Assembly: GCA_964435545.1 (NCBI GenBank)
Contig: CAYSZI010000001.1
Location: forward strand, 16,079 to 53,654
Source: an uncultured Candidatus Saccharibacteria bacterium
GTDB taxonomy: Bacteria; Patescibacteriota; Minisyncoccia; Phycocordibacterales; UBA9973
Reading direction: 5' to 3'
DNA: 37,576 nucleotides
How positions within the stretch are numbered: position 1 is the first letter of the stretch; the number at the start of each line of letters is the position of its first letter. Below, piece by piece: positions 4,770 to 37,576 of the stretch. The translations under genes and the position numbers were made by a program. The notes below the pieces were generated by a model. The model was not told the DNA's origin and searched no databases. It saw only the letters and a list, made by a program, of their open reading frames with translations.

Positions 4770-4798
4770 GAATGTTTTTAGAACATAAATAATTTTTA

Positions 4799-5248
4799 TT
4801 ATTTATAATGTGTTTTTATATACGCGTTGTCACAGCGTAAAATCGTTTTTTTTGTATTCTTCCCAATATAGAAGGTTGCAGGAACATATACAATTCCACC
4901 TGATTCATATTTAGGAAAATCCATATACAAGTTTGAGTTTACAATTACTTTAACTTTAATTAATCCTTTCTTGTTTTCTAAACCCTTTACTTCTATAACA
5001 TAGGAAGAATCTTCCCATGATGCATTTACTTCTTCTGTACCTCGTACCAGATCAGTTTTCATTGCTATGGCTCCAAGGCTGAATGAGTCAAACTTAAAAT
5101 CTGTTTTAAATCTGATTGTCAATTCAGACTTATCAAGATCTCTAATGTAAACATGATTGATCTCGCACTCCGTGTACGGTGCAACTTCCATGAAATAATA
5201 AAGGGCTATAGCCGCTACTACGATAAACGAAAATACATATTTTTTCAT
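4799..5248 (-). CDS. Hypothetical membrane-anchored protein (149 aa)
   Basis: N-terminal signal-anchor MKKYVFSFIVVAAIALYYF followed by a beta-rich soluble part. No family recognised. Confidence 0.55.
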   Translation of the reverse strand: MKKYVFSFIVVAAIALYYFMEVAPYTECEINHVYIRDLDKSELTIRFKTDFKFDSFSLGAIAMKTDLVRGTEEVNASWEDSSYVIEVKGLENKKGLIKVKVIVNSNLYMDFPKYESGGIVYVPATFYIGKNTKKTILRCDNAYIKTHYK

Positions 5249-5326
5249 TGTTCAAATTTTCAATACATTATCATATATATTAGCACATGTCAAACGCATC
5301 ATTTTTAGCGCAAAACGCCGGTATTG

Positions 5327-5354
5327 TTGACTTTTTTAAGCTATCGTGTAAAAT
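5327..5354 (+). promoter_or_regulatory. Sigma70-type promoter of rplU
   Basis: TTGACT-N16-TAAAAT with TG immediately upstream of the -10. The -10 ends 8 nt before the rplU ATG. Confidence 0.6.
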
Positions 5355-5362
5355 GGCTCCAT

Positions 5363-5683
5363 ATGAAAGAATTTGCGATTATAGCAACTGGGGGCAAACA
5401 ATATCCGGTATCAGTCGGAGATGTTATTCACGTTGAAAAGCTTCCTGGTGAATATGTTAAAGGAGACAAGGTTTTCTTTAAAGAAGTGCTTCTTGTAGAC
5501 AACGGCCAAGATACAACAATCGGTACACCAACAATCGACGGAGCCGTAGTTGAAGGAATCTTCCAAGAAAACGCTCGAAACAAGACAGTCATAGTTGCAA
5601 AATACAAAGCTAAATCTCGATACTACAAAAAGAACGGACATCGCCAACCATACTCAGAAGTCAAAATCTCAGCAATCAAATAA
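5363..5683 (+). CDS. rplU: 50S ribosomal protein L21
   Basis: MKEFAIIATGGKQYPVSVGDVIHVEKL is a typical L21 N-terminus. I prefer the ATG at 5363 over the track's upstream start at 5324, which would lie inside the promoter. No rpmA (L27) follows. Confidence 0.9.
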   Translation: MKEFAIIATGGKQYPVSVGDVIHVEKLPGEYVKGDKVFFKEVLLVDNGQDTTIGTPTIDGAVVEGIFQENARNKTVIVAKYKAKSRYYKKNGHRQPYSEVKISAIK

Positions 5684-32209: not shown

Positions 32210-32232
32210 TCGTGCTAAAAAATATAAAAAAC

Positions 32233-32270
32233 AAAGTGCAGACGTTGTAATAACGGCTGCACTTTTTATT
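32233..32270 (+). terminator. Intrinsic terminator of guaB-purA
   Basis: AAAGTGCAG-15-nt loop-CTGCACTTT followed by TTATTTT. Confidence 0.65.
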
Positions 32271-32280
32271 TTGCAAAATA

Positions 32281-32302
32281 AAAAAGAACCGAAGTTCTTT
32301 TT
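32281..32302. terminator. Short bidirectional hairpin terminator
   Basis: AAAAAGAAC-cgaa-GTTCTTTTT, placed after the stop of the minus-strand 32321 gene. Confidence 0.6.
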
Positions 32303-32320: not shown

Positions 32321-32752
32321 TTATTTATTTCTTTGTTGCTGTGCACTTTCTGAATCATTTGCAGAAAGAACAATGGTTGCAGATGCAATAAATATTCCTA
32401 TATATCCTATTAAAACGTACATGAAATTAATTTCAGGTAAACTTTTTTCAAAATATGTATTTATTAAATACAACGCCACACACATTAAAGCAAACGCCAC
32501 AGTAGCTACGATTTTTTTAGAAAAAACTATAATCATAGTGAAGAAAAAAATAACAATCAGTGCTGTTAAATAATTTTTGGAAAAAATATGCTCATTTTTT
32601 TCCCAATCAGTCCGTCCTGAAAGATTAGAAAAATAACAATACACAAAAAGTGGTTCAAAAAACAAAGCCACTCCAATAAGAAATAATATTAATTCGTTAT
32701 TTCTTCTGTGCTGTCTAAAGCGAAATTGCAACCGCAAGAATAATTTTTTCAT
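32321..32752 (-). CDS. Polytopic membrane protein (143 aa from the ATG at 32752)
   Basis: Four TM-like helices. Chosen over the overlapping plus-strand ORF 32151-32573, which runs through the purA stop and both terminators. Confidence 0.5.
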   Translation of the reverse strand: MKKLFLRLQFRFRQHRRNNELILFLIGVALFFEPLFVYCYFSNLSGRTDWEKNEHIFSKNYLTALIVIFFFTMIIVFSKKIVATVAFALMCVALYLINTYFEKSLPEINFMYVLIGYIGIFIASATIVLSANDSESAQQQRNK

Positions 32753-32827
32753 AAAAAACAAAATTAGAAATGAAGAATGATTTGCAATATATGTTACTCC
32801 GTTTATAAATATTGTCTAATCAAACTT

Positions 32828-32856
32828 TTCGATTAAATCAAAAAATATTGTATACT
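32828..32856 (+). promoter_or_regulatory. Promoter of the five-gene VOC-to-Smr operon (leaderless geometry)
   Basis: TTCGAT-N17-TATACT, with the -10 ending 6 nt before the ATG at 32863. Confidence 0.55.
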
Positions 32857-32862
32857 GGCCGT

Positions 32863-33342
32863 ATGAGTATTCACCCAGAAGTCACCATTGGTCACGTGCA
32901 TCTTACCGTCTCAGACCTAGACAGAGCGCTCGTTTTCTATCGTGATATTTTGGGCTTTGAAATCACATCTCGTTATGGCGATAGTGCAGTGTTTCTTTCA
33001 GATGGCGGATATCATCACCATATAGCACTCAATACCTGGGCAGGGAAGAATGCCACCCCCGCTCCAAAAGGCCATACAGGGCTATATCATGTGGCTATTT
33101 TATACCCAAGCAGAAAAGAGCTCGCCCGGGTCCTAAAGCGTCTCATAGACGAAAAATACCCCTTAACAGGCACCGCAGACCACGGAGTATCCGAAGCAAT
33201 CTACCTCGAAGACTCCGATCAAAACGGCATTGAATTGTACTGCGATAGACCACGCGAAACCTGGAAAGTAAAAAACGACGGGGAAGTGGAGATGGTGACG
33301 GAAGTACTAGATATTGATGGGCTACTTATGGAATTAAGTTAA
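32863..33342 (+). CDS. VOC-superfamily protein (glyoxalase/extradiol dioxygenase fold)
   Basis: IGHVHLTVSDLDRALVFYRDILGFE and LYHVAILYPS...HGVSEAIYLEDSDQNGIELY beta-alpha-beta-beta-beta modules. Starts at the ATG at 32863; the track's TTG at 32812 precedes the promoter. Confidence 0.8.
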   Translation: MSIHPEVTIGHVHLTVSDLDRALVFYRDILGFEITSRYGDSAVFLSDGGYHHHIALNTWAGKNATPAPKGHTGLYHVAILYPSRKELARVLKRLIDEKYPLTGTADHGVSEAIYLEDSDQNGIELYCDRPRETWKVKNDGEVEMVTEVLDIDGLLMELS

Positions 33343-33348
33343 TTTTTT

Positions 33349-33714
33349 ATGGCAAAAAAATCTTCCGAAAAGAATCTACAAGATTTGCAAAAAATGGTTA
33401 TTGCTTTTCGTGACGCAAGAAACTGGAAACAATTTCACAATCCAAAAGATCTTGCTCTATCAATGGTTTTAGAAGCTGGCGAAGTAATGGAGCATTTTCA
33501 ATGGAAAAATAATTCAGAAATTGAAAAATATACCTCAGAACATAAAGACGAAATTGCAGACGAACTAGCTGATGTACTTAGTTACATTTTAATTATTGCA
33601 AATGATTTAAATATAAATATATCAAAAGCTTTAGAAATTAAAACAGAAAAAAATAATAAAAAATACCCAGTCGAGAAAGCAAAAGGTAAAAGTACCAAAT
33701 ACAATAAACTTTAA
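33349..33714 (+). CDS. MazG-like all-alpha nucleoside triphosphate pyrophosphohydrolase (DCTPP1/YpjD-like)
   Basis: FRDARNWKQFHNPKDLALSMVLEAGEVMEHF plus EIADELADVLSY gives the ExxE...ExxD metal motif. 121 aa. Starts 6 nt after the VOC stop. Confidence 0.8.
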   Translation: MAKKSSEKNLQDLQKMVIAFRDARNWKQFHNPKDLALSMVLEAGEVMEHFQWKNNSEIEKYTSEHKDEIADELADVLSYILIIANDLNINISKALEIKTEKNNKKYPVEKAKGKSTKYNKL

Positions 33715-33717
33715 TAT

Positions 33718-35727
33718 ATGTCAGAAATTAAAAAATTTTCTTTTGAAAGGGAAAAATTAGAACAAATTAAATCATACAAATTCGGAAAAAATTGGCCGGT
33801 TGTTTATATAATAGAAAACGGAAAAGAAATATATATAGGAGAAACAGTTCACGCATACAGCAGAAGTAAACAACACTATGACAGCAATCCAGAAAGGAGA
33901 AAATTAAAGAATTTATATATAATTAGCGATAATGAATACAATAAATCAGCAGCCTTAGATATTGAATCTTGGCTTATTCAGTATATTTCAGCGGAAGGAT
34001 CGTTTACTTTACAAAACGGCAACAACGGACTAAAAAATCATAATTATTTTGAAAGAGAAAAATACAAAGCAAAATTTGAAATAATTTGGGAAAGACTAAA
34101 AGAAATTTCTTTAGTTAATAAAGATCTTATTCAGATACGAAATAGTGATCTTTTTAAATATTCACCATATAAATCTCTAACAGAGGATCAAATTTTTGTT
34201 GCAAAAAAAATATGTAAAAATATTGAATCTGGATTAGAAAATAAATATATAATAAACGGCAAACCGGGTACAGGTAAAACAATACTAGCAATATACCTTG
34301 TTAAATTTCTGACAGAACAAGAAAAAACAAAACACCTAAAAATTGCTTTAGTTGTACCAATGACATCATTAAGAAAAACAATAAAAAAAGTTTTTTCAAA
34401 GGTAGCGGGATTTAATGCTAAAATGGTTATAGGTCCAAGCGATGTAGTAAAAAATAAATATGATGTTTTAATTGTCGACGAAGCACATCGACTCAAACAA
34501 CGAGTAAATTTAACAAATTACCCAGTTTTTGATCAAACAAACGTAAAACTAAATTTAGACAAAACAGGTACTGAACTTGATTGGATAATCAAATCTTCAA
34601 AACACCAAATTTTGTTTTATGATAAAAATCAAAGCGTTAAACCAACAGACATAAATCCTAAAAAAATCACTGACTTGGACGCCATCCATTATGATCTCAT
34701 TAGCCAACAAAGAATAGATGCGGGTGAAGAATATACTAATTTTATAGATGACCTTTTTGACCTTCAAGATATTTCAAAGTATAAATTTTCAAATTACGAC
34801 TTAAGGATTTACACAAACATACAAGACATGGTTTCCGATATAAAAACAAAAGATTCAGAACATAAATTATCGAGAATTGTTGCTGGATACGCTTGGCCAT
34901 GGAAAACAAAAGGTAATAAACCAGGATATGATATAGAAATTGATGGTACTAAATTAATTTGGAATAGTACCGCACAAGATTGGGTTAACTCAAATAATTC
35001 GATAAACGAAGTTGGTTGTATTCACACAGTGCAAGGATATGATTTAAATTACATCGGAGTAATAATTGGACCAGAATTAGCATATGACGAAATAAATAAT
35101 AAAATTATAATTAATTCTGAAAAATATAAGGACATTAATGGTAAGCGTTCAATCACCGAACCTAAAGAATTAGAAAGATATATAATTAATATATACAAAA
35201 CATTGCTTACAAGAGGAATAAAAGGTACCTATATATACGCAGTAGACAAGTCATTAGAAAAATATTTATTAAAAAACATAAATATTAAAAAAAATAATTC
35301 TGAAATTATATCACCATATATTACTGAATATAAAATGGTTGATATACCTTTATTTGAATCGGTAGGCTGCGGAGAGTTAATGTACGCAGATCAAAATAGC
35401 TTAGAAATGATCTCGGTTAGGAAAGATTATATGTCTTCTGGTTCAAAATATTTTGTTTTAAGAGTAACAGGAGATTCCATGAACAAAGCAGGTATCAACA
35501 GCGGTGACTTAGTCTTGTGTGTTAAAAATTACCACCCTGAGATTGGAAATAAAGTTGTAGCACTAATAGGAGACGACGCAACAATCAAGGAATACCACAG
35601 AGAAAATAATAATGTAATTTTAAAACCAGTTTCAAGCAACCAGCAACACAAACCTATGAAGTTTACGGAATATGACGAAATAAAAATACAAGGTGTTGTT
35701 GTAAGAGTGTTAGACAAGGATGAATAA
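33718..35727 (+). CDS. Fusion protein: GIY-YIG nuclease + DUF2075-type P-loop helicase + LexA/UmuD-type S24 peptidase domain
   Basis: GIY-YIG: VVY28-30, YIG39-41, R49, E83. NTPase: Walker A GKPGTGKT (181-188), Walker B DEAH (254-257), IHTVQGYDLNYIGVIIG. S24: IPLFESVGCGELMYA, RVTGDSMNKAGINSGDLVL (Ser587), ATIKEY (Lys624). Starts 3 nt after the MazG stop. Confidence 0.85.
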   Translation: MSEIKKFSFEREKLEQIKSYKFGKNWPVVYIIENGKEIYIGETVHAYSRSKQHYDSNPERRKLKNLYIISDNEYNKSAALDIESWLIQYISAEGSFTLQNGNNGLKNHNYFEREKYKAKFEIIWERLKEISLVNKDLIQIRNSDLFKYSPYKSLTEDQIFVAKKICKNIESGLENKYIINGKPGTGKTILAIYLVKFLTEQEKTKHLKIALVVPMTSLRKTIKKVFSKVAGFNAKMVIGPSDVVKNKYDVLIVDEAHRLKQRVNLTNYPVFDQTNVKLNLDKTGTELDWIIKSSKHQILFYDKNQSVKPTDINPKKITDLDAIHYDLISQQRIDAGEEYTNFIDDLFDLQDISKYKFSNYDLRIYTNIQDMVSDIKTKDSEHKLSRIVAGYAWPWKTKGNKPGYDIEIDGTKLIWNSTAQDWVNSNNSINEVGCIHTVQGYDLNYIGVIIGPELAYDEINNKIIINSEKYKDINGKRSITEPKELERYIINIYKTLLTRGIKGTYIYAVDKSLEKYLLKNINIKKNNSEIISPYITEYKMVDIPLFESVGCGELMYADQNSLEMISVRKDYMSSGSKYFVLRVTGDSMNKAGINSGDLVLCVKNYHPEIGNKVVALIGDDATIKEYHRENNNVILKPVSSNQQHKPMKFTEYDEIKIQGVVVRVLDKDE

Positions 35728-36253
35728 TTTCACCCTCAAAAAATCCCGCACGACCAAACGGATTCGGATTTCGGTTCATCCTGATGGCAAGGTTAGTGTT
35801 TCGGCGCCGCAGCTTGTGCCGGATTTTTTGGTGCGACGATTTGTGGAATCAAAGAAAAATTGGATTGAGGAAAAGCTGGAATATTTTAAAAAACATCCAG
35901 TTGAAAAATCCCCATTTTTAATTAAGCCGAGAATGAATGAGGCAAATAAAAAACAAGCACTTGCGCTTGTTTATGAACGACTTAAACATTTCAATAATTT
36001 CTATAATTTCCCTTACAACAATGTCAGCATCCGAAATCAAAAAACTCGCTGGGGAAGTTGTTCGAAAAGAAAAAATTTAAATTTTAATTTTAAAATAATA
36101 TTCCTTACACCCGAACAACAAGACTACATTGTCGTGCATGAATTGTGTCATTTGCAAGAATTCAATCACGGCAAAAAATTTTGGGACCTTGTGGCAAAAC
36201 AGAGCCCGGATTATAAAAATATTCGTTCGTCAATCAAAAAATTTAGGTTATAA
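35720..36253 (+). CDS. DUF45/YgjP-like HExxH zinc metallohydrolase (M48/SprT-like)
   Basis: RWGSCSKRKNLNFNFKIIFL...DYIVVHELCHLQEFNHGKKFW. The ATG overlaps the preceding gene's last codons by 8 nt (GGATGAATAA). Confidence 0.8.
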   Translation: MNNFTLKKSRTTKRIRISVHPDGKVSVSAPQLVPDFLVRRFVESKKNWIEEKLEYFKKHPVEKSPFLIKPRMNEANKKQALALVYERLKHFNNFYNFPYNNVSIRNQKTRWGSCSKRKNLNFNFKIIFLTPEQQDYIVVHELCHLQEFNHGKKFWDLVAKQSPDYKNIRSSIKKFRL

Positions 36254-36267
36254 TACTATTTATCATT

Positions 36268-36525
36268 ATGAACAAATACTTGCGCACACCAAGCAAAATA
36301 ATCGACTTACATGGACACACCACATCCGAGGCAAAAATCGCGTTAGACGAGCTTTTGAAATCAAACGAGAGCTATGTGAGAATAATAGTGGGGAAGGGCA
36401 ATCATAGCAAAGAGGGTCCAGTACTTAGAGATTTTGTAAAGAAATATTTCTTGAGTAAAAACATTCATTTCAATCAATCAAAAATTAGTGACGGTGGCGA
36501 AGGTGCGCTCGAAGTTTTTTTATAA
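36268..36525 (+). CDS. Stand-alone Smr (small MutS-related) domain protein
   Basis: IIDLHGHTTSEAKIALDELL and RIIVGKGNHSKEGPVLRDFV motifs. 85 aa. Confidence 0.8.
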   Translation: MNKYLRTPSKIIDLHGHTTSEAKIALDELLKSNESYVRIIVGKGNHSKEGPVLRDFVKKYFLSKNIHFNQSKISDGGEGALEVFL

Positions 36526-36532
36526 AATTGGC

Positions 36533-36585
36533 AAAAAAAATTCCACGCAAATGCTTTGAAAAGCTTTCGCGTGGACTTATTTTTG
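36533..36585. terminator. Bidirectional terminator closing the operon
   Basis: A8-TCCACGC-structured loop-GCGTGGA-CTTATTTTT, between the convergent stops at 36525 and 36605. Confidence 0.65.
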
Positions 36586-36604
36586 CACTATTCAAACACA
36601 ACAT

Positions 36605-37408
36605 TTAGTATCGTGATATTATTATATTTTTTACTTTAGTAAGAATTTTTGGATATTTTTTTAGTATATCCTTAACTCTTTCGATTTTTTGTTCGCCCTT
36701 TTTGCAGACAAGCTCACCAGAATCTAAACCGGCTTCTTTAAAAATCTGCAGATATTTTTCATATTCTTCACTGTATGTGTTGGGTCCAATTTCACCAATG
36801 GCATGCGACACAAGATTTATAAGTGATTGAACTAAAAAATATTCTCCGGCAATTTTTATTGAAACCACATCTGAATTAAATTCCACATCAGAACCAGTAT
36901 GGCTCTGTTGTGAATGCCAGTATTCCTGCTGCAAAATTGAGTTTGCATATCTTTCAAAAGAAATGAGGGAATCAATTCCTTCTTTTTTTAAAAGTTCTAC
37001 TCCGACTTTATAGCTTCTTTTAATGGCGTAGCGATTTAACTCTATAAATCCACCGTTTGGTTCAAACTCTCCAGCAAAAGGTGAAATCGTATCGTCTACG
37101 ATAATCATGTTTACACCGATGAACGTACCGCAATTACACGGAACATCTCGGAATTCACCACCATTACTTCCGAAGACGGTTTTTACCTTTAAGGTCTTCC
37201 CGAAAGGACAGGGAAATTTTCCAATAGGGGCAGACATAGTCTCTTTTAAGAGTTTATCTACTTCTCTCCATCTTGGATGTGGATCGGTATTTGGATGAAT
37301 AGATTTAACAACACACAAGGTATCGGTAAATTCAGTTTTTGTAGGTGTGCTTGAATTGCCACAACCAAACAAGAAAATCAAAACGGGCAACAAAAATACA
37401 TATTTCAT
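36605..37408 (-). CDS. Hypothetical lipoprotein (267 aa)
   Basis: Signal peptide plus lipobox MKYVFLLPVLIFLFG|C. No family recognised. Confidence 0.6.
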   Translation of the reverse strand: MKYVFLLPVLIFLFGCGNSSTPTKTEFTDTLCVVKSIHPNTDPHPRWREVDKLLKETMSAPIGKFPCPFGKTLKVKTVFGSNGGEFRDVPCNCGTFIGVNMIIVDDTISPFAGEFEPNGGFIELNRYAIKRSYKVGVELLKKEGIDSLISFERYANSILQQEYWHSQQSHTGSDVEFNSDVVSIKIAGEYFLVQSLINLVSHAIGEIGPNTYSEEYEKYLQIFKEAGLDSGELVCKKGEQKIERVKDILKKYPKILTKVKNIIISRY

Positions 37409-37457: not shown

Positions 37458-37526
37458 ATACATAAAAAATTTAGCTCTTGGGAAAATAACTTCTATACAC
37501 ATCGCGCAAAATTTGTGTTGTTTTAT

Positions 37527-37535
37527 TTATCCACA
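37527..37535 (+). promoter_or_regulatory. Perfect DnaA-box-like 9-mer TTATCCACA
   Basis: Lies 11 nt upstream of the TTGCTT -35 at 37547. It shares the 13-mer TTTATCCACAGAT with the copy at 4704-4716. Confidence 0.5.
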
Positions 37536-37546
37536 GATGTTTTTGC

Positions 37547-37575
37547 TTGCTTGTGAACGAGCGTTCACATATACT
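37547..37575 (+). promoter_or_regulatory. Outward-facing promoter whose spacer is a GAAC-N4-GTTC palindrome (SOS/Cheo-box-like operator)
   Basis: TTGCTT-N17-TATACT. The spacer holds TGTGAACG-AG-CGTTCACA (37552-37569) with core GAACGAGCGTTC (37555-37566). The target gene lies beyond the window end. Confidence 0.5.
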
Positions 37576-37576
37576 T

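What the first reader, a model, noticed from the sequence alone, without database searches (positions are those of the whole stretch)
32828..36585. Tightly coupled five-gene operon (VOC, MazG-like NTPase, nuclease-helicase-S24 fusion, DUF45 protease, Smr) as a candidate DNA-damage or anti-phage module
A single promoter (32828-32856) and a single terminator (36533-36585) bracket five plus-strand genes. The intergenic distances are 6, 3, -8 (overlap GGATGAATAA) and 14 nt, so co-expression is very likely.

Each partner has a nucleic-acid-surveillance connotation:
- MazG/DCTPP1-like enzymes hydrolyse canonical or modified dNTPs.
- DUF45/SprT-like HExxH proteases accompany helicases and restriction enzymes.
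- Smr domains are nicking or RNA-cleaving endonucleases.

The combination therefore couples a nucleotide-pool enzyme, two nucleases, a helicase and two proteases, one of which is self-cleaving. That resembles a sensor-effector defence or repair cassette more than metabolism. Whether all five genes or only MazG plus the fusion form the functional unit remains open.
Basis: inference. Interest (0 to 1): 0.75.

Follow-up and report, generated by a model that had tools for sequence, protein, structure and literature searches.

The report
Conserved MazG plus nuclease-helicase gene pair
Of the five tightly packed genes, only two stay together across hundreds of bacteria: a small nucleotide-cleaning enzyme and a large DNA-cutting, DNA-unwinding protein with a LexA-like self-cleaving tail. 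That pair looks like an undescribed relative of known anti-phage nuclease-helicases, not a five-part machine.

Summary
The anatomy is real. There are five plus-strand ORFs (VOC, MazG-like, GIY-YIG–DUF2075 helicase–S24 fusion, DUF45/YgjP, Smr) with gaps of 6, 3, -8 and 14 nt, and a strong bidirectional terminator. A -10 box is conserved in four related loci. It sits 6 nt before the VOC ATG, which implies a leaderless mRNA.

The five-gene "module" does not hold up. MazG sits directly upstream of the fusion in 79 of 80 related loci, usually -4 to +5 nt away. It stays adjacent even where gene order is reversed or the nuclease domain differs. VOC, DUF45 and Smr are neighbours only in the window's own Patescibacteria lineage.

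The real unit is a modular two-gene system:
- a DCTPP1-like dNTP pyrophosphatase;
- a nuclease plus SLFN-g3/SF1B helicase;
- an optional C-terminal S24 domain, present in 47 of 80 loci. It has an invariant UmuD-type Cys-Gly site and Ser/Lys dyad, and it is shuffled between alleles.

The host lexA operon lies next door, but the operon carries no SOS box. Any RecA* control would therefore act on the protein itself.

My best reading is a RecA*-gated variant of the Nhi/AbiO class of anti-phage nuclease-helicases, confidence about 0.5. A DNA-damage repair role is the main rival. PADLOC and the searchable literature describe neither the MazG pairing nor the S24 fusion.

The parts
32851..32856 (+). 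-10 box TATACT of the operon promoter, 6 nt before the VOC ATG. This implies a leaderless mRNA. It is lineage context, not part of the conserved two-gene unit.
   Evidence: The block ATAT(C/T)GTATACT is conserved 6-8 nt upstream of the VOC ATG in the window, L098, L084 and L006, while the rest of the upstream DNA is unrelated. The consensus scan did not flag it.
32863..33342 (+). VOC/glyoxalase-fold protein (159 aa from ATG 32863). It is a co-transcribed lineage-specific neighbour, not a conserved partner.
   Evidence: PF00903 2e-15. Homologues are 75-100% identical across Patescibacteria. It is found with and without MazG or the fusion.
33349..33714 (+). MazG-like, DCTPP1/RS21-C6-type dNTP pyrophosphohydrolase (121 aa). 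This is the conserved partner gene.
   Evidence: PF12643 8e-18. PDB matches: 4qgp 7e-21 and DCTPP1 6sqw 2.8e-20. The metal-binding motifs E42xxE45xxE48..QW and ExxD are at least 95% conserved in 73 orthologues. It is adjacent to the fusion in 79 of 80 loci, with a gap of -4 to +5 nt in 77 of 80.
33718..34122 (+). Fusion protein, N-terminal GIY-YIG nuclease domain (aa 1-135).
   Evidence: Catalytic Y30, Y39, R49, H53, E83 and N100 are invariant.
34135..35277 (+). Fusion protein, SF1B helicase core (DUF2075 / SLFN-g3 helicase, aa 140-520).
   Evidence: PF09848 5e-66. Walker A K187 and Walker B D254/E255 are invariant in 201 of 201. Foldseek matches SLFN11 7zel, Dna2 5eax, Upf1, RecD2 and Dda at 1e-10 to 1e-8.
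35284..35325 (+). Disordered linker (aa 523-536) between the helicase and the S24 domain.
   Evidence: AF2 pLDDT is below 50 for residues 523-536. The S24-less orthologues end at about this point.
35335..35727 (+). Fusion protein, C-terminal S24 LexA/UmuD-type autoprotease domain (aa 540-669) plus the stop codon. The predicted scissile bond is Cys551-Gly552 (35368-35373), the nucleophile Ser587 (35476-35478) and the general base Lys624 (35587-35589).
   Evidence: PF00717 5e-24. The profile matches LexA and UmuD at 1e-17 to 1e-12. Foldseek matches the LexA C-terminal domain 1jhe with TM 0.88 and rmsd 2.2 A. C551, G552, S587 and K624 are invariant in 168 of 168.
35720..36253 (+). DUF45/YgjP-like HExxH metallopeptidase (177 aa). 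It overlaps the fusion gene by 8 nt and is a lineage-specific neighbour.
   Evidence: PF01863 7e-47. The HELCH motif lies at 36137-36151. It is directly downstream of the fusion only in the window, L098, L084/85, L006 and L099. None of 8 DUF45-seeded loci carries the fusion.
36268..36525 (+). Stand-alone Smr domain protein (85 aa). It is a lineage-specific neighbour.
   Evidence: PF01713 2e-12. It is adjacent only in close relatives. In L084 an EVE-domain gene separates it from DUF45.
36531..36586 (.). Bidirectional intrinsic terminator between Smr (+) and the convergent 36605-37408 (-) gene.
   Evidence: dG -23.5 kcal/mol, z -5.2, with a GC-rich stem flanked by an A-run and a T-run.

Best explanation
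**The unit.** The conserved unit is a two-gene module, not five genes:
- a DCTPP1-like MazG pyrophosphatase;
- translationally coupled to it, a nuclease-helicase (GIY-YIG plus an SF1B DUF2075/SLFN-g3 helicase).

In this allele the nuclease-helicase carries a C-terminal LexA/UmuD-type S24 autoprotease.

**What it most likely is.** I read it as a nucleic-acid conflict system directed against phages or other mobile elements. It belongs to the same architectural class as Nhi, Nhi-like and AbiO.

**Proposed mechanism. All steps are inferred; the sequence shows only that the catalytic and cleavage-site residues are intact (invariant).**
1. At rest, the S24 domain holds the enzyme in a restrained, probably dimeric, state.
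2. RecA-ssDNA filaments form on replicating or damaged foreign DNA.
3. These filaments stimulate self-cleavage at Cys551-Gly552 by the Ser587/Lys624 dyad. This happens in parallel with cleavage of the host's own LexA, and it does not depend on transcription.
4. The released GIY-YIG-helicase unwinds and cuts the DNA.
5. The MazG partner hydrolyses dCTP-type nucleotides, possibly base-modified ones. This either starves replication or stops nucleotides from degraded, modified DNA being re-used.

**The other three genes.** VOC, DUF45 and Smr are co-transcribed here only because of lineage-specific synteny.
For: **The pairing**
- MazG is directly upstream in 79 of 80 fusion-seeded loci, with a gap of -4 to +5 nt in 77 of 80.
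- The pairing persists at 35-42% identity: on Bacillus cereus-group megaplasmids (L081), on a gut contig (L083) and on IMG/VR contigs. In two of those (L106/107) the gene order is reversed but the genes stay adjacent.
- Reverse test: of 5 loci seeded with MazG alone, 3 have a DUF2075 nuclease-helicase directly downstream and in a fourth it follows an intervening RadC gene. The fifth has an unknown protein plus a PIN nuclease.

**Modularity typical of conflict systems**
- 47 of 80 loci have S24 and 33 lack it.
- There are three S24 types.
- Pairwise identity of the core and of S24 correlates only weakly, r = 0.25. Some pairs are 88% identical in the core and 39% in S24; others are 60% and 100%.
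- The N-terminal nuclease is replaced by a non-GIY domain in relatives that keep MazG; one of the two examined (L112) also keeps S24.

**All active sites invariant**.

**Context**
- 38 of 80 loci have toxin-antitoxin or nuclease-type neighbours.
- 13 of 80 have an Mrr_cat, HNH or MrcB_N-NucS restriction-type gene directly adjacent.
- The more distant MazG-less DUF2075 plasmid homologues L087 and L088 sit beside restriction and McrC genes.
- Syntenic loci lack the fusion (L101, L102).

**Architectural class proven in defence**
- Nhi, Nhi-like and AbiO are nuclease plus DUF2075/SF1B helicase anti-phage proteins.
- Phages escape Nhi-like by losing a DNA methylase. That fits a partner enzyme related to DCTPP1, which I recall acts on modified dCTP.

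**RecA*/LexA axis present in the host**
- A canonical lexA gene with a GAACGnnCGTTC box lies next to the cluster.
- The operon itself has no such box, which points to control at the protein level.
Against: - There is no experimental evidence for any member of this clade.
- PADLOC gives only partial, low-score Nhi/AbiO matches restricted to the helicase, and nothing for MazG.
- In the window's own lineage the locus is syntenic and looks vertically inherited. Between the window and L099, the fusion is 60% identical and the flanking IMPDH and PurA are 53% and 67%. So it is not obviously mobile there, and no flanking repeats bound the cassette.
- lexA, Smr, an SprT-like peptidase and a bleomycin-resistance-fold VOC lie nearby, which fits a DNA-damage role equally well.
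- It is almost absent from viral collections (5 of 2.9 million contigs) and from non-Bacillus plasmids.
- The link to modified bases is circumstantial. It rests on DCTPP1 homology and on neighbouring type IV-like nucleases.
- MazG and the fusion can occur without each other (L099, L101).
Confidence: 0.5

Rival explanations
1. **DNA-damage repair or tolerance module.** The GIY-YIG-helicase would process lesions or stalled forks, much like a UvrC-type nuclease combined with a UvrD- or Dna2-type helicase. MazG would clear damaged or non-canonical dNTPs from the pool. The S24 tail would make the enzyme a post-translational member of the SOS response. In this lineage it would have been gathered with other damage-related genes: Smr, the SprT-like DUF45, the bleomycin-resistance-fold VOC and lexA.
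For: - lexA with its SOS box is syntenic with the cluster in the window (37555-37566), L098, L084, L100 and L101.
- In this lineage the fusion diverges at about the same rate as the flanking housekeeping genes, and the locus near gltX and the mur genes is conserved in at least 8 genomes.
- DCTPP1-type MazG enzymes are classical house-cleaning enzymes (plus general knowledge).
- The fusion-DUF45 adjacency survives to 60% identity (L099, L006).
- The family is strongly constrained, with mean core identity of 59% across CPR classes.
Against: - Outside this lineage, none of the damage-related neighbours is retained.
- The context is otherwise rich in toxin-antitoxin and restriction-type genes.
- The S24 and nuclease modules are swapped between alleles, which is unusual for core repair enzymes.
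- The fusion is present in some syntenic loci and absent in others.
- Homologues on Bacillus megaplasmids sit beside a zeta toxin and an HNH nuclease.
- There is no SOS box on the operon.
Confidence: 0.3
2. **The first reader's reading.** All five genes (VOC, MazG, fusion, DUF45, Smr) form one integrated sensor-effector cassette.
For: - The spacing is tight, with an 8-nt overlap between the fusion and DUF45, and one strong terminator.
- The block recurs in L098 and L084/85. A looser version recurs in L006 and L099.
- DUF45 lies within 6 kb of the fusion in 8 of 80 loci. That exceeds the roughly 1-2% I estimate for a single-copy gene in a genome of about 1 Mb.
Against: - Only 1 of 80 fusion-seeded loci has all of VOC, DUF45 and Smr adjacent.
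- None of 8 DUF45-seeded loci carries any partner.
- VOC also occurs without the module in L102 and with MazG but no fusion in L101; the L100 contig ends 0.5 kb past VOC, so that case is open.
- Insertions break the block: Bro-N in L006 and EVE in L084.
- All recurrences are in syntenic relatives, so they are not independent observations.
Confidence: 0.07
3. **Selfish or replicative function.** The GIY-YIG-helicase would be a homing-type or mobile-element replication or maintenance enzyme, with MazG as an auxiliary nucleotide-metabolism gene of the kind carried by phages. On this reading it would not be a host-benefit system.
For: - GIY-YIG domains are common in homing endonucleases (general knowledge).
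- MazG matches a phage pyrophosphatase family, phrog_3301.
- A few copies lie on IMG/VR contigs and on plasmids.
Against: - Only 5 of 2.9 million viral contigs carry it.
- It is not inserted into host genes.
- There are no terminal repeats or integrase around it.
- It sits at a stable chromosomal position in the window's lineage.
Confidence: 0.05

Closest known systems
Nhi (Staphylococcus epidermidis SERP2475), Nhi-like (Millman et al. 2022) and lactococcal AbiO: single-protein nuclease plus DUF2075/SF1B helicase anti-phage enzymes
   Same: - All have an N-terminal nuclease fused to a DUF2075 / SLFN-g3-type SF1B helicase.
- The PADLOC Nhi and AbiO profiles hit the helicase part.
- Some relatives of the window protein carry a non-GIY N-terminus with a D...ExK motif, as these proteins do (not verified).
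   Different: - The nuclease here is GIY-YIG, not PD-(D/E)XK.
- The Nhi and AbiO profiles cover only part of the protein at 47-57 bits.
- There is an almost obligate MazG partner gene.
- A C-terminal S24 autoprotease is present.
- No member of this clade has been tested.
LexA / UmuD / phage CI S24 self-cleaving proteins
   Same: - The fold matches (TM 0.88 to the LexA C-terminal domain).
- The Ser-Lys dyad is present.
- The cleavage loop resembles UmuD (Cys-Gly) or LexA (PLVGxxxCGEPLL in type 2).
   Different: - There is no DNA-binding HTH and no polymerase-accessory role.
- The domain is the C-terminal tail of a 540-residue enzyme.
- The host's real LexA (188 aa, Ala-Gly site) is a separate gene nearby.
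DCTPP1 / RS21-C6 and related all-alpha MazG house-cleaning pyrophosphatases
   Same: - Sequence homology is clear (2.8e-20 to DCTPP1).
- The metal-binding glutamates and the FQW motif are conserved.
   Different: - It is a minimal 115-121 aa protein, genetically coupled to a nuclease-helicase.
- Its substrate is unknown.
Human Schlafen 11 (SLFN11)
   Same: - The helicase family is the same (PF09848; Foldseek 7zel, 3e-10).
- A nuclease domain is fused to the helicase.
- From my own knowledge, SLFN11 responds to ssDNA at stressed forks. That is conceptually close to sensing RecA-ssDNA.
   Different: - The nuclease is unrelated (the SLFN tRNA endoribonuclease core).
- SLFN11 has no S24 domain and no MazG partner.
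- The resemblance is analogy plus a shared helicase core only.
dNTP-depleting defence enzymes (dCTP deaminase, dGTPase; Tal et al. 2022)
   Same: A nucleotide-pool enzyme in a defence context (mentioned).
   Different: - The enzyme family is different.
- Here the enzyme is always paired with a nuclease-helicase.
- Whether it depletes canonical dNTPs or cleans modified ones from the pool is unknown.

Membership tests
Nhi / AbiO (PADLOC models PDLC02372, PDLC02350) | Full-length match to the family profile | tested here: not met
   Nhi: 3e-16, 57 bits, covering profile positions 172-376 of 470. AbiO: 5e-13, covering 111-372 of 468. Only the helicase part matches. Five relatives give the same result.
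Nhi / Nhi-like / AbiO | N-terminal PD-(D/E)XK nuclease | tested here: not met
   The N-terminus is GIY-YIG.
Nhi / Nhi-like / AbiO | DUF2075 / SF1B helicase core with intact Walker A and B motifs | tested here: met
   PF09848 5e-66. K187, D254 and E255 are invariant. Foldseek matches SF1B helicases.
Nhi / Nhi-like / AbiO | Acts as a single gene and protects against phage | not testable with these tools
   Genetically it is not a single gene: MazG is adjacent in 79 of 80 loci. The phenotype is untested.
S24 LexA/UmuD autoproteases | Ser-Lys catalytic dyad and an (Ala/Cys)-Gly scissile bond in a loop ahead of the catalytic core | tested here: met
   S587, K624, C551 and G552 are invariant in 168 of 168. 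PF00717 scores 84.6 bits against a cut-off of 23.3. TM 0.88 to 1jhe.
S24 LexA/UmuD autoproteases | RecA*-stimulated self-cleavage | not testable with these tools
   The only indirect evidence is that the host has a canonical lexA and SOS box.
LexA repressors | N-terminal winged-helix DNA-binding domain | tested here: not met
   The N-terminus is a nuclease plus a helicase. TIGR00498 lexA matches only residues 522-665, at 76.8 bits against a cut-off of 110.95.
MazG-like / DCTPP1 pyrophosphatases | Pfam MazG-like match above cut-off, plus the ExxE...ExxD metal-binding motifs | tested here: met
   64.9 bits against a cut-off of 27. DCTPP1 matches at 2.8e-20. The motifs are at least 95% conserved.
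MazG-like / DCTPP1 pyrophosphatases | Preference for dCTP or 5-modified dCTP | not testable with these tools
   Homology only.
GIY-YIG nucleases | GIY...YIG strands, catalytic Arg, His/Tyr, Glu and Asn, and the fold | tested here: inconclusive
   The window copy is below the Pfam cut-off (18 bits against 22.6), although 13 of 13 homologues match. hhalign gives 2e-4. Foldseek matches UvrC 1ycz with prob 0.98 but E 0.06. The motif residues are invariant. Taken together the assignment is likely, but no single test is above threshold.
Five-gene operon as a conserved system | Co-occurrence of all five genes around homologues of the central protein | tested here: not met
   Only 1 of 80 loci has all five. 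None of 8 DUF45-seeded loci has any partner. VOC-seeded loci vary.
MazG + nuclease-helicase two-gene module (defined here) | Reciprocal adjacency that holds despite divergence, changes in gene order and domain swaps | tested here: met
   79 of 80 in the forward test. In the reverse test 3 of 5 are directly adjacent and a fourth is separated by one RadC gene. The order is reversed in L106/107. The Bacillus plasmid pair is 35% identical. Exceptions: L099, L101 and L111.
SOS regulon (transcriptional) | LexA box in the promoter | tested here: not met
   GAACGnnCGTTC precedes lexA in five loci. It is absent (at 1 mismatch or fewer) upstream of VOC and MazG in the window. No exact box lies upstream of MazG in the 80 loci.

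The most novel reading that the evidence does not exclude
This would be a new type of bacterial immune effector in which a LexA/UmuD-type S24 autoprotease is fused directly to a nuclease-helicase. RecA-ssDNA filaments formed during phage replication would unleash the enzyme post-translationally. A dedicated DCTPP1-like pyrophosphatase would destroy the invader's (modified) dNTP pool, or the nucleotides released from its DNA. It is widespread in the otherwise poorly understood defensome of Patescibacteria/CPR and shares its helicase core with human Schlafens.
Probability: 0.3. Interest if true: 0.8.

Novelty: new variant of a known kind. Interest (0 to 1): 0.6.

Why it matters
**If the reading is right**
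- It adds a sensing principle to the nuclease-helicase class of defence proteins (Nhi, AbiO, Hna, and Schlafen-like helicases): direct RecA* sensing through a fused S24 self-cleaving domain.
- It adds an obligate nucleotide-pool partner enzyme to that class.
- It would be one of the few defence-type systems characteristic of CPR/Patescibacteria. These bacteria are uncultured, have tiny genomes and little known immunity.
- A tractable homologue exists on Bacillus cereus-group megaplasmids.

**If the repair reading is right instead**
- It would define a compact, post-translationally SOS-controlled repair enzyme in minimal genomes.

**Either way**
- The result corrects the unit of function from five genes to two.
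- It flags the MazG partnership and the swappable S24 module. I could not find either described.

Tried and rejected
- **PADLOC on all five proteins and on five relatives.** No system was assigned.
- **Literature.**
  - No paper combines DUF2075 with MazG. Only 10 papers mention DUF2075 at all.
  - Searches combining MazG, Schlafen, Nhi and DCTPP1, and S24 with helicase and anti-phage, found nothing relevant.
- **Allele-replacement idea.** I first thought the fusion had been replaced at a syntenic hotspot, because VOC is 91% identical and the fusion 60% between the window and L099. I rejected this: the flanking IMPDH and PurA are 53% and 67%, so VOC is simply unusually conserved.
- **"High identity means horizontal transfer".** This is weak. 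The fusion is more conserved than GltX at long range and less at short range. That suggests transfer but does not show it.
- **MazG against core co-divergence.** The correlation is r = 0.22, which is uninformative given the short protein and the narrow identity range.
- **SOS-box regulation of the operon.** Rejected. The exact GAAC-N4-GTTC at 32286 is part of a terminator-like hairpin after purA, not an operator.
- **Mobile-element boundaries.** Only AT-rich chance repeats were found.
- **Internal terminator-like hairpin at 35800-35823 inside DUF45.** It is within chance expectation (5 found against 3.4 expected).
- **Exact look-up of the window's fusion protein.** It is not on record. The exact VOC and MazG proteins are, on a 53.6-kb NCBI contig.
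- **The 368-aa partner of MazG in L111.** By eye it resembles a PUA/EVE-like domain plus a PD-(D/E)XK nuclease. Pfam and PADLOC gave no hit, so I do not rely on it.

Full report
**1. Observation**

Pfam confirms the domain calls:
- VOC/glyoxalase;
- MazG-like;
- a 669-aa protein with a DUF2075/SLFN-g3 helicase and a C-terminal Peptidase_S24;
- YgjP-like/DUF45, with the HELCH motif;
- Smr.

The N-terminal 135 residues of the large protein form a GIY-YIG nuclease domain. No single test clears its threshold, but four agree:
- PF01541 matches all 13 homologue N-termini, best 2.5e-5. The window copy scores 18 bits against a cut-off of 22.6.
- hhalign against genuine small GIY-YIG proteins gives 2e-4.
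- An AF2 model of the domain (pLDDT 89) matches UvrC's GIY-YIG domain (prob 0.98, TM 0.63).
- The catalytic Tyr, Tyr, Arg, His, Glu and Asn are invariant in about 200 sequences.

The terminator at 36531-36586 is strong (-23.5 kcal/mol, z -5.2) and bidirectional.

The promoter is only partly supported:
- Promoter-like matches in this AT-rich DNA are no more frequent than chance, and the proposed site was not reported.
- The -10 TATACT at 32851-32856 lies in a block conserved 6-8 nt before the VOC ATG in four loci whose upstream DNA is otherwise unrelated.
- This places the true start at ATG 32863 and suggests a leaderless mRNA.

The rest of the window holds ordinary housekeeping genes of a low-GC Patescibacteria (CPR) chromosome: aminoacyl-tRNA synthetases, DnaB, RecR, ScpAB, mur genes, IMPDH and PurA. 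The closest homologues are all CPR metagenome-assembled genomes.

**2. Which genes belong together**

*Seeding with the fusion protein.* I collected 80 loci from species-representative genomes. I then asked which of the window's genes lie nearby.
- MazG is immediately upstream in 79 of 80. The exception, L035, is cut by a contig end.
- The MazG stop and the fusion start are -4 to +5 nt apart in 77 of 80.
- VOC, DUF45 and Smr are all adjacent in a single locus, L006.
- De novo clustering of all 1,077 neighbouring genes found no other family in more than 9 loci.

*Reverse tests.*
- Eight loci seeded with DUF45 contain none of the other four genes.
- Four loci seeded with VOC, a protein 75-100% identical across many Patescibacteria, vary:

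| Locus | Arrangement |
|---|---|
| L099 | VOC-fusion-DUF45, no MazG |
| L101 | MazG-VOC, no fusion; a NOV_C nuclease gene follows a 57-aa ORF |
| L100, L102 | VOC without the module (the L100 contig ends 0.5 kb downstream of VOC) |

- Five loci seeded with MazG alone:

| Locus | Downstream of MazG |
|---|---|
| L109, L110, L112 | a DUF2075 nuclease-helicase directly downstream |
| L108 | RadC, then a DUF2075 nuclease-helicase |
| L111 | an unknown 368-aa protein plus a PIN_12 nuclease |

*Distant relatives.* The pair persists at 35-42% identity on Bacillus cereus-group megaplasmids, where the genes are annotated "nucleotide pyrophosphohydrolase" and "DUF2075 domain-containing protein". It also persists on a gut contig and on five IMG/VR contigs. 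In two of those the order is reversed but the genes stay adjacent. DUF2075 proteins at or below about 33% identity lack MazG.

*The full block.* The complete five-gene block recurs only in close, syntenic relatives: L098 at 96%, and L084/85 at 81% with an EVE gene inserted. L006 (62%) keeps MazG-fusion-DUF45-Smr but has a Bro-N gene inserted between VOC and MazG. These are not independent observations.

*Conclusion.* The functional unit supported by conservation is MazG plus the fusion. The other three genes are probably co-transcribed lineage-specific neighbours.

**3. Anatomy of the unit**

*MazG.* It is a clear homologue of DCTPP1/RS21-C6 (2.8e-20) and of an archaeal pyrophosphatase, 4qgp (7e-21). 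The metal-binding ExxExxE...ExxD motifs are conserved.

*The large protein.* The full-length AF2 model has mean pLDDT 85. It shows:
- the GIY-YIG domain;
- an SF1B helicase core similar to SLFN11, Dna2, Upf1, RecD2 and Dda;
- a disordered linker at residues 523-536;
- an S24 domain that superposes on the LexA C-terminal domain (TM 0.88, rmsd 2.2 A).

*The S24 domain.* It has a UmuD-like Cys551-Gly552 site, Ser587 and Lys624. All four are invariant in 168 of 168 S24-bearing sequences.

*Modularity.*
- 47 of 80 loci carry S24. The other 33 end just after the helicase.
- There are at least three S24 types: UmuD-like (PLF..GCGELM), LexA-like (PLV..PCGEPL), and a CI-like GNSMEP type in 42%-identity relatives.
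- Core identity and S24 identity are nearly uncorrelated, r = 0.25. Some pairs are 88% identical in the core and 39% in S24. Others are 60% and 100%.
- Many relatives with 42-52% identical helicase cores have a different N-terminal domain of about 235 residues, with or without S24. They still have MazG upstream (L108, L112).
- The exhaustive search finds 466 representatives (50%-identity clusters) at E <= 1e-30.

**4. Context**

*Pointing to a conflict system.*
- 38 of 80 loci contain toxin-antitoxin or nuclease-type neighbours: SocA/Panacea-HTH, PemK, RhuM-Fic, NYN and small GIY-YIG proteins.
- 13 of 80 have an Mrr_cat, HNH or MrcB_N-NucS_C gene directly beside the module.
- The Bacillus plasmid copy lies near a zeta toxin and an HNH nuclease.
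- Other plasmid DUF2075 genes lie beside restriction, McrC or DUF3578 genes.

*Pointing the other way.*
- In the window's lineage the locus is syntenic (mur genes, gltX, then a variable stretch, then VOC).
- The fusion has diverged about as much as the flanking IMPDH and PurA: 60% against 53% and 67%.
- Nothing marks the cassette as mobile.

*The neighbouring lexA.*
- A canonical lexA (188 aa, Ala-Gly site) is preceded by a conserved 64-aa ORF and a GAACGnnCGTTC box.
- It lies within 0.3-3 kb of the cluster in L098, L084, L100 and L101.
- The window ends exactly in that promoter, with the box at 37555-37566.
- The VOC-Smr operon, and the MazG upstream regions elsewhere, lack such a box.
- So the host has a RecA*/LexA axis, but the operon is not part of the transcriptional regulon. 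If the S24 tail responds to RecA*, it does so at the protein level.

**5. Mechanism (inferred)**

My best reading, at confidence about 0.5, is a variant of the Nhi/AbiO-class nuclease-helicase defence system.
1. The S24 domain keeps the enzyme restrained.
2. RecA-ssDNA filaments trigger self-cleavage at Cys551-Gly552.
3. The freed GIY-YIG-helicase degrades replicating foreign DNA.
4. MazG hydrolyses dCTP-type, possibly modified, nucleotides.

The modified-base idea rests on three things, and it is circumstantial:
- DCTPP1 homology;
- the recurrent type IV-like neighbours (Mrr_cat, MrcB_N-NucS, EVE);
- the published finding that phages escape Nhi-like by losing a DNA methylase.

The main rival, at about 0.3, is an SOS-linked repair or tolerance enzyme. 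In this lineage it would have been gathered with Smr, the SprT-like DUF45, VOC and lexA.

The five-gene integrated system (about 0.07) and a selfish-element function (about 0.05) are poorly supported.

**6. Comparison with known systems, and novelty**

- Nhi, Nhi-like and AbiO share the nuclease plus DUF2075/SF1B architecture and are proven anti-phage proteins.
- The window protein fails membership. Its nuclease is GIY-YIG rather than PD-(D/E)XK, and the PADLOC profiles match only the helicase part at low score.
- Neither the MazG partnership nor the S24 fusion appears in PADLOC v2 or in the searchable literature.
- I classify it as a new variant of a known kind.

**7. Limits**

- Everything here is computational.
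- DefenseFinder, AlphaFold-Multimer and a full phyletic survey could not be run.
- Organism labels on many metagenome-assembled genomes are unreliable.

Noticed in passing
window 37555-37566 (context 37520-37576): An exact Cheo-type SOS box, GAACGAGCGTTC, sits next to a TATACT -10 at the very end of the window. The same box and flanking sequence precede a conserved 64-aa ORF plus a 188-aa LexA (Ala-Gly site) in L098, L084, L100 and L101. The window therefore stops in the lexA promoter of this CPR bacterium.
   Followed up: yes
window 32851-32865: The -10 box lies only 6 nt before the VOC ATG, there is no Shine-Dalgarno sequence, and the arrangement is conserved in four loci. The operon mRNA is probably leaderless. 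One database entry (P0121, 176 aa) uses the upstream TTG 32812, which would place the promoter inside the ORF.
   Followed up: partly
L103-L105 (IMG/VR contigs), fusion ORF e.g. L104 5983-8226: Relatives at 42% identity carry a third, CI-like S24 tail (AACG ... GNSMEP ... SIKTY; PF00717 9e-12). MazG overlaps the start of the fusion gene by 4 nt. S24 is thus found on distant branches of the family.
   Followed up: yes
L106 3457-5366, L107 3125-5034: The gene order is reversed, with the fusion (528 aa, no S24) followed by MazG after a 2-nt gap. Adjacency is kept despite the permutation.
   Followed up: yes
L112 4351-6663 and L108 5125-6993: The MazG-associated DUF2075 proteins here have an N-terminus that is not GIY-YIG. 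By eye it carries a D...(I/V)IELKQW motif, suggesting PD-(D/E)XK. L112 also has the S24 tail. In L108 a RadC/JAB gene sits between MazG and the helicase gene.
   Followed up: partly
L111 4001-6448: A MazG of the same subfamily is followed, after a 1-nt gap, by a 368-aa protein with no Pfam or PADLOC hit and then a PIN_12 nuclease, instead of a DUF2075 protein. This may be an alternative effector set for the same MazG.
   Followed up: partly
L101 5649-7919: This locus is syntenic with the window's relatives, but MazG sits directly upstream of VOC. There is no fusion, DUF45 or Smr. A NOV_C (DUF3883-type) nuclease-domain protein follows VOC after a short 57-aa ORF.
   Followed up: partly
L084 12567-13034; L006 about 4770-5630: There are insertions inside the otherwise conserved block: an EVE (modified-base reader) gene between DUF45 and Smr in L084, and a Bro-N domain gene between VOC and MazG in L006.
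   Followed up: partly
L023, L061, L068, L075 (gene directly downstream of the fusion); L028, L036, L057, L059, L073: Restriction-type genes are recurrent immediate neighbours of the module: MrcB_N + NucS_C proteins in four loci and Mrr_cat + topoisomerase zinc-ribbon proteins in five. A Paenibacillus plasmid homologue (L082) has a DUF3578/MrcB_N protein upstream instead of MazG.
   Followed up: partly
window 32226-32272 and 32280-32300: Two hairpins follow purA: an inverted repeat at 32226-32272, and AAAAAGAAC-CGAA-GTTCTTTTT. They look like bidirectional terminators between purA (+) and the 32321-32761 (-) membrane-protein ORF. The second contains a chance GAAC-N4-GTTC.
   Followed up: partly
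window 32863-33342 versus homologues: The VOC protein is unusually conserved: 91% identical between genomes whose PurA and IMPDH are 67% and 53% identical. Its Pfam matches include the bleomycin-resistance-like N-terminal domain. Its function in CPR bacteria is unknown.
   Followed up: partly
window 35800-35833: A terminator-like GC hairpin followed by a T-run lies inside the DUF45 coding region on the + strand. It is within chance expectation and I did not examine it further.
   Followed up: no
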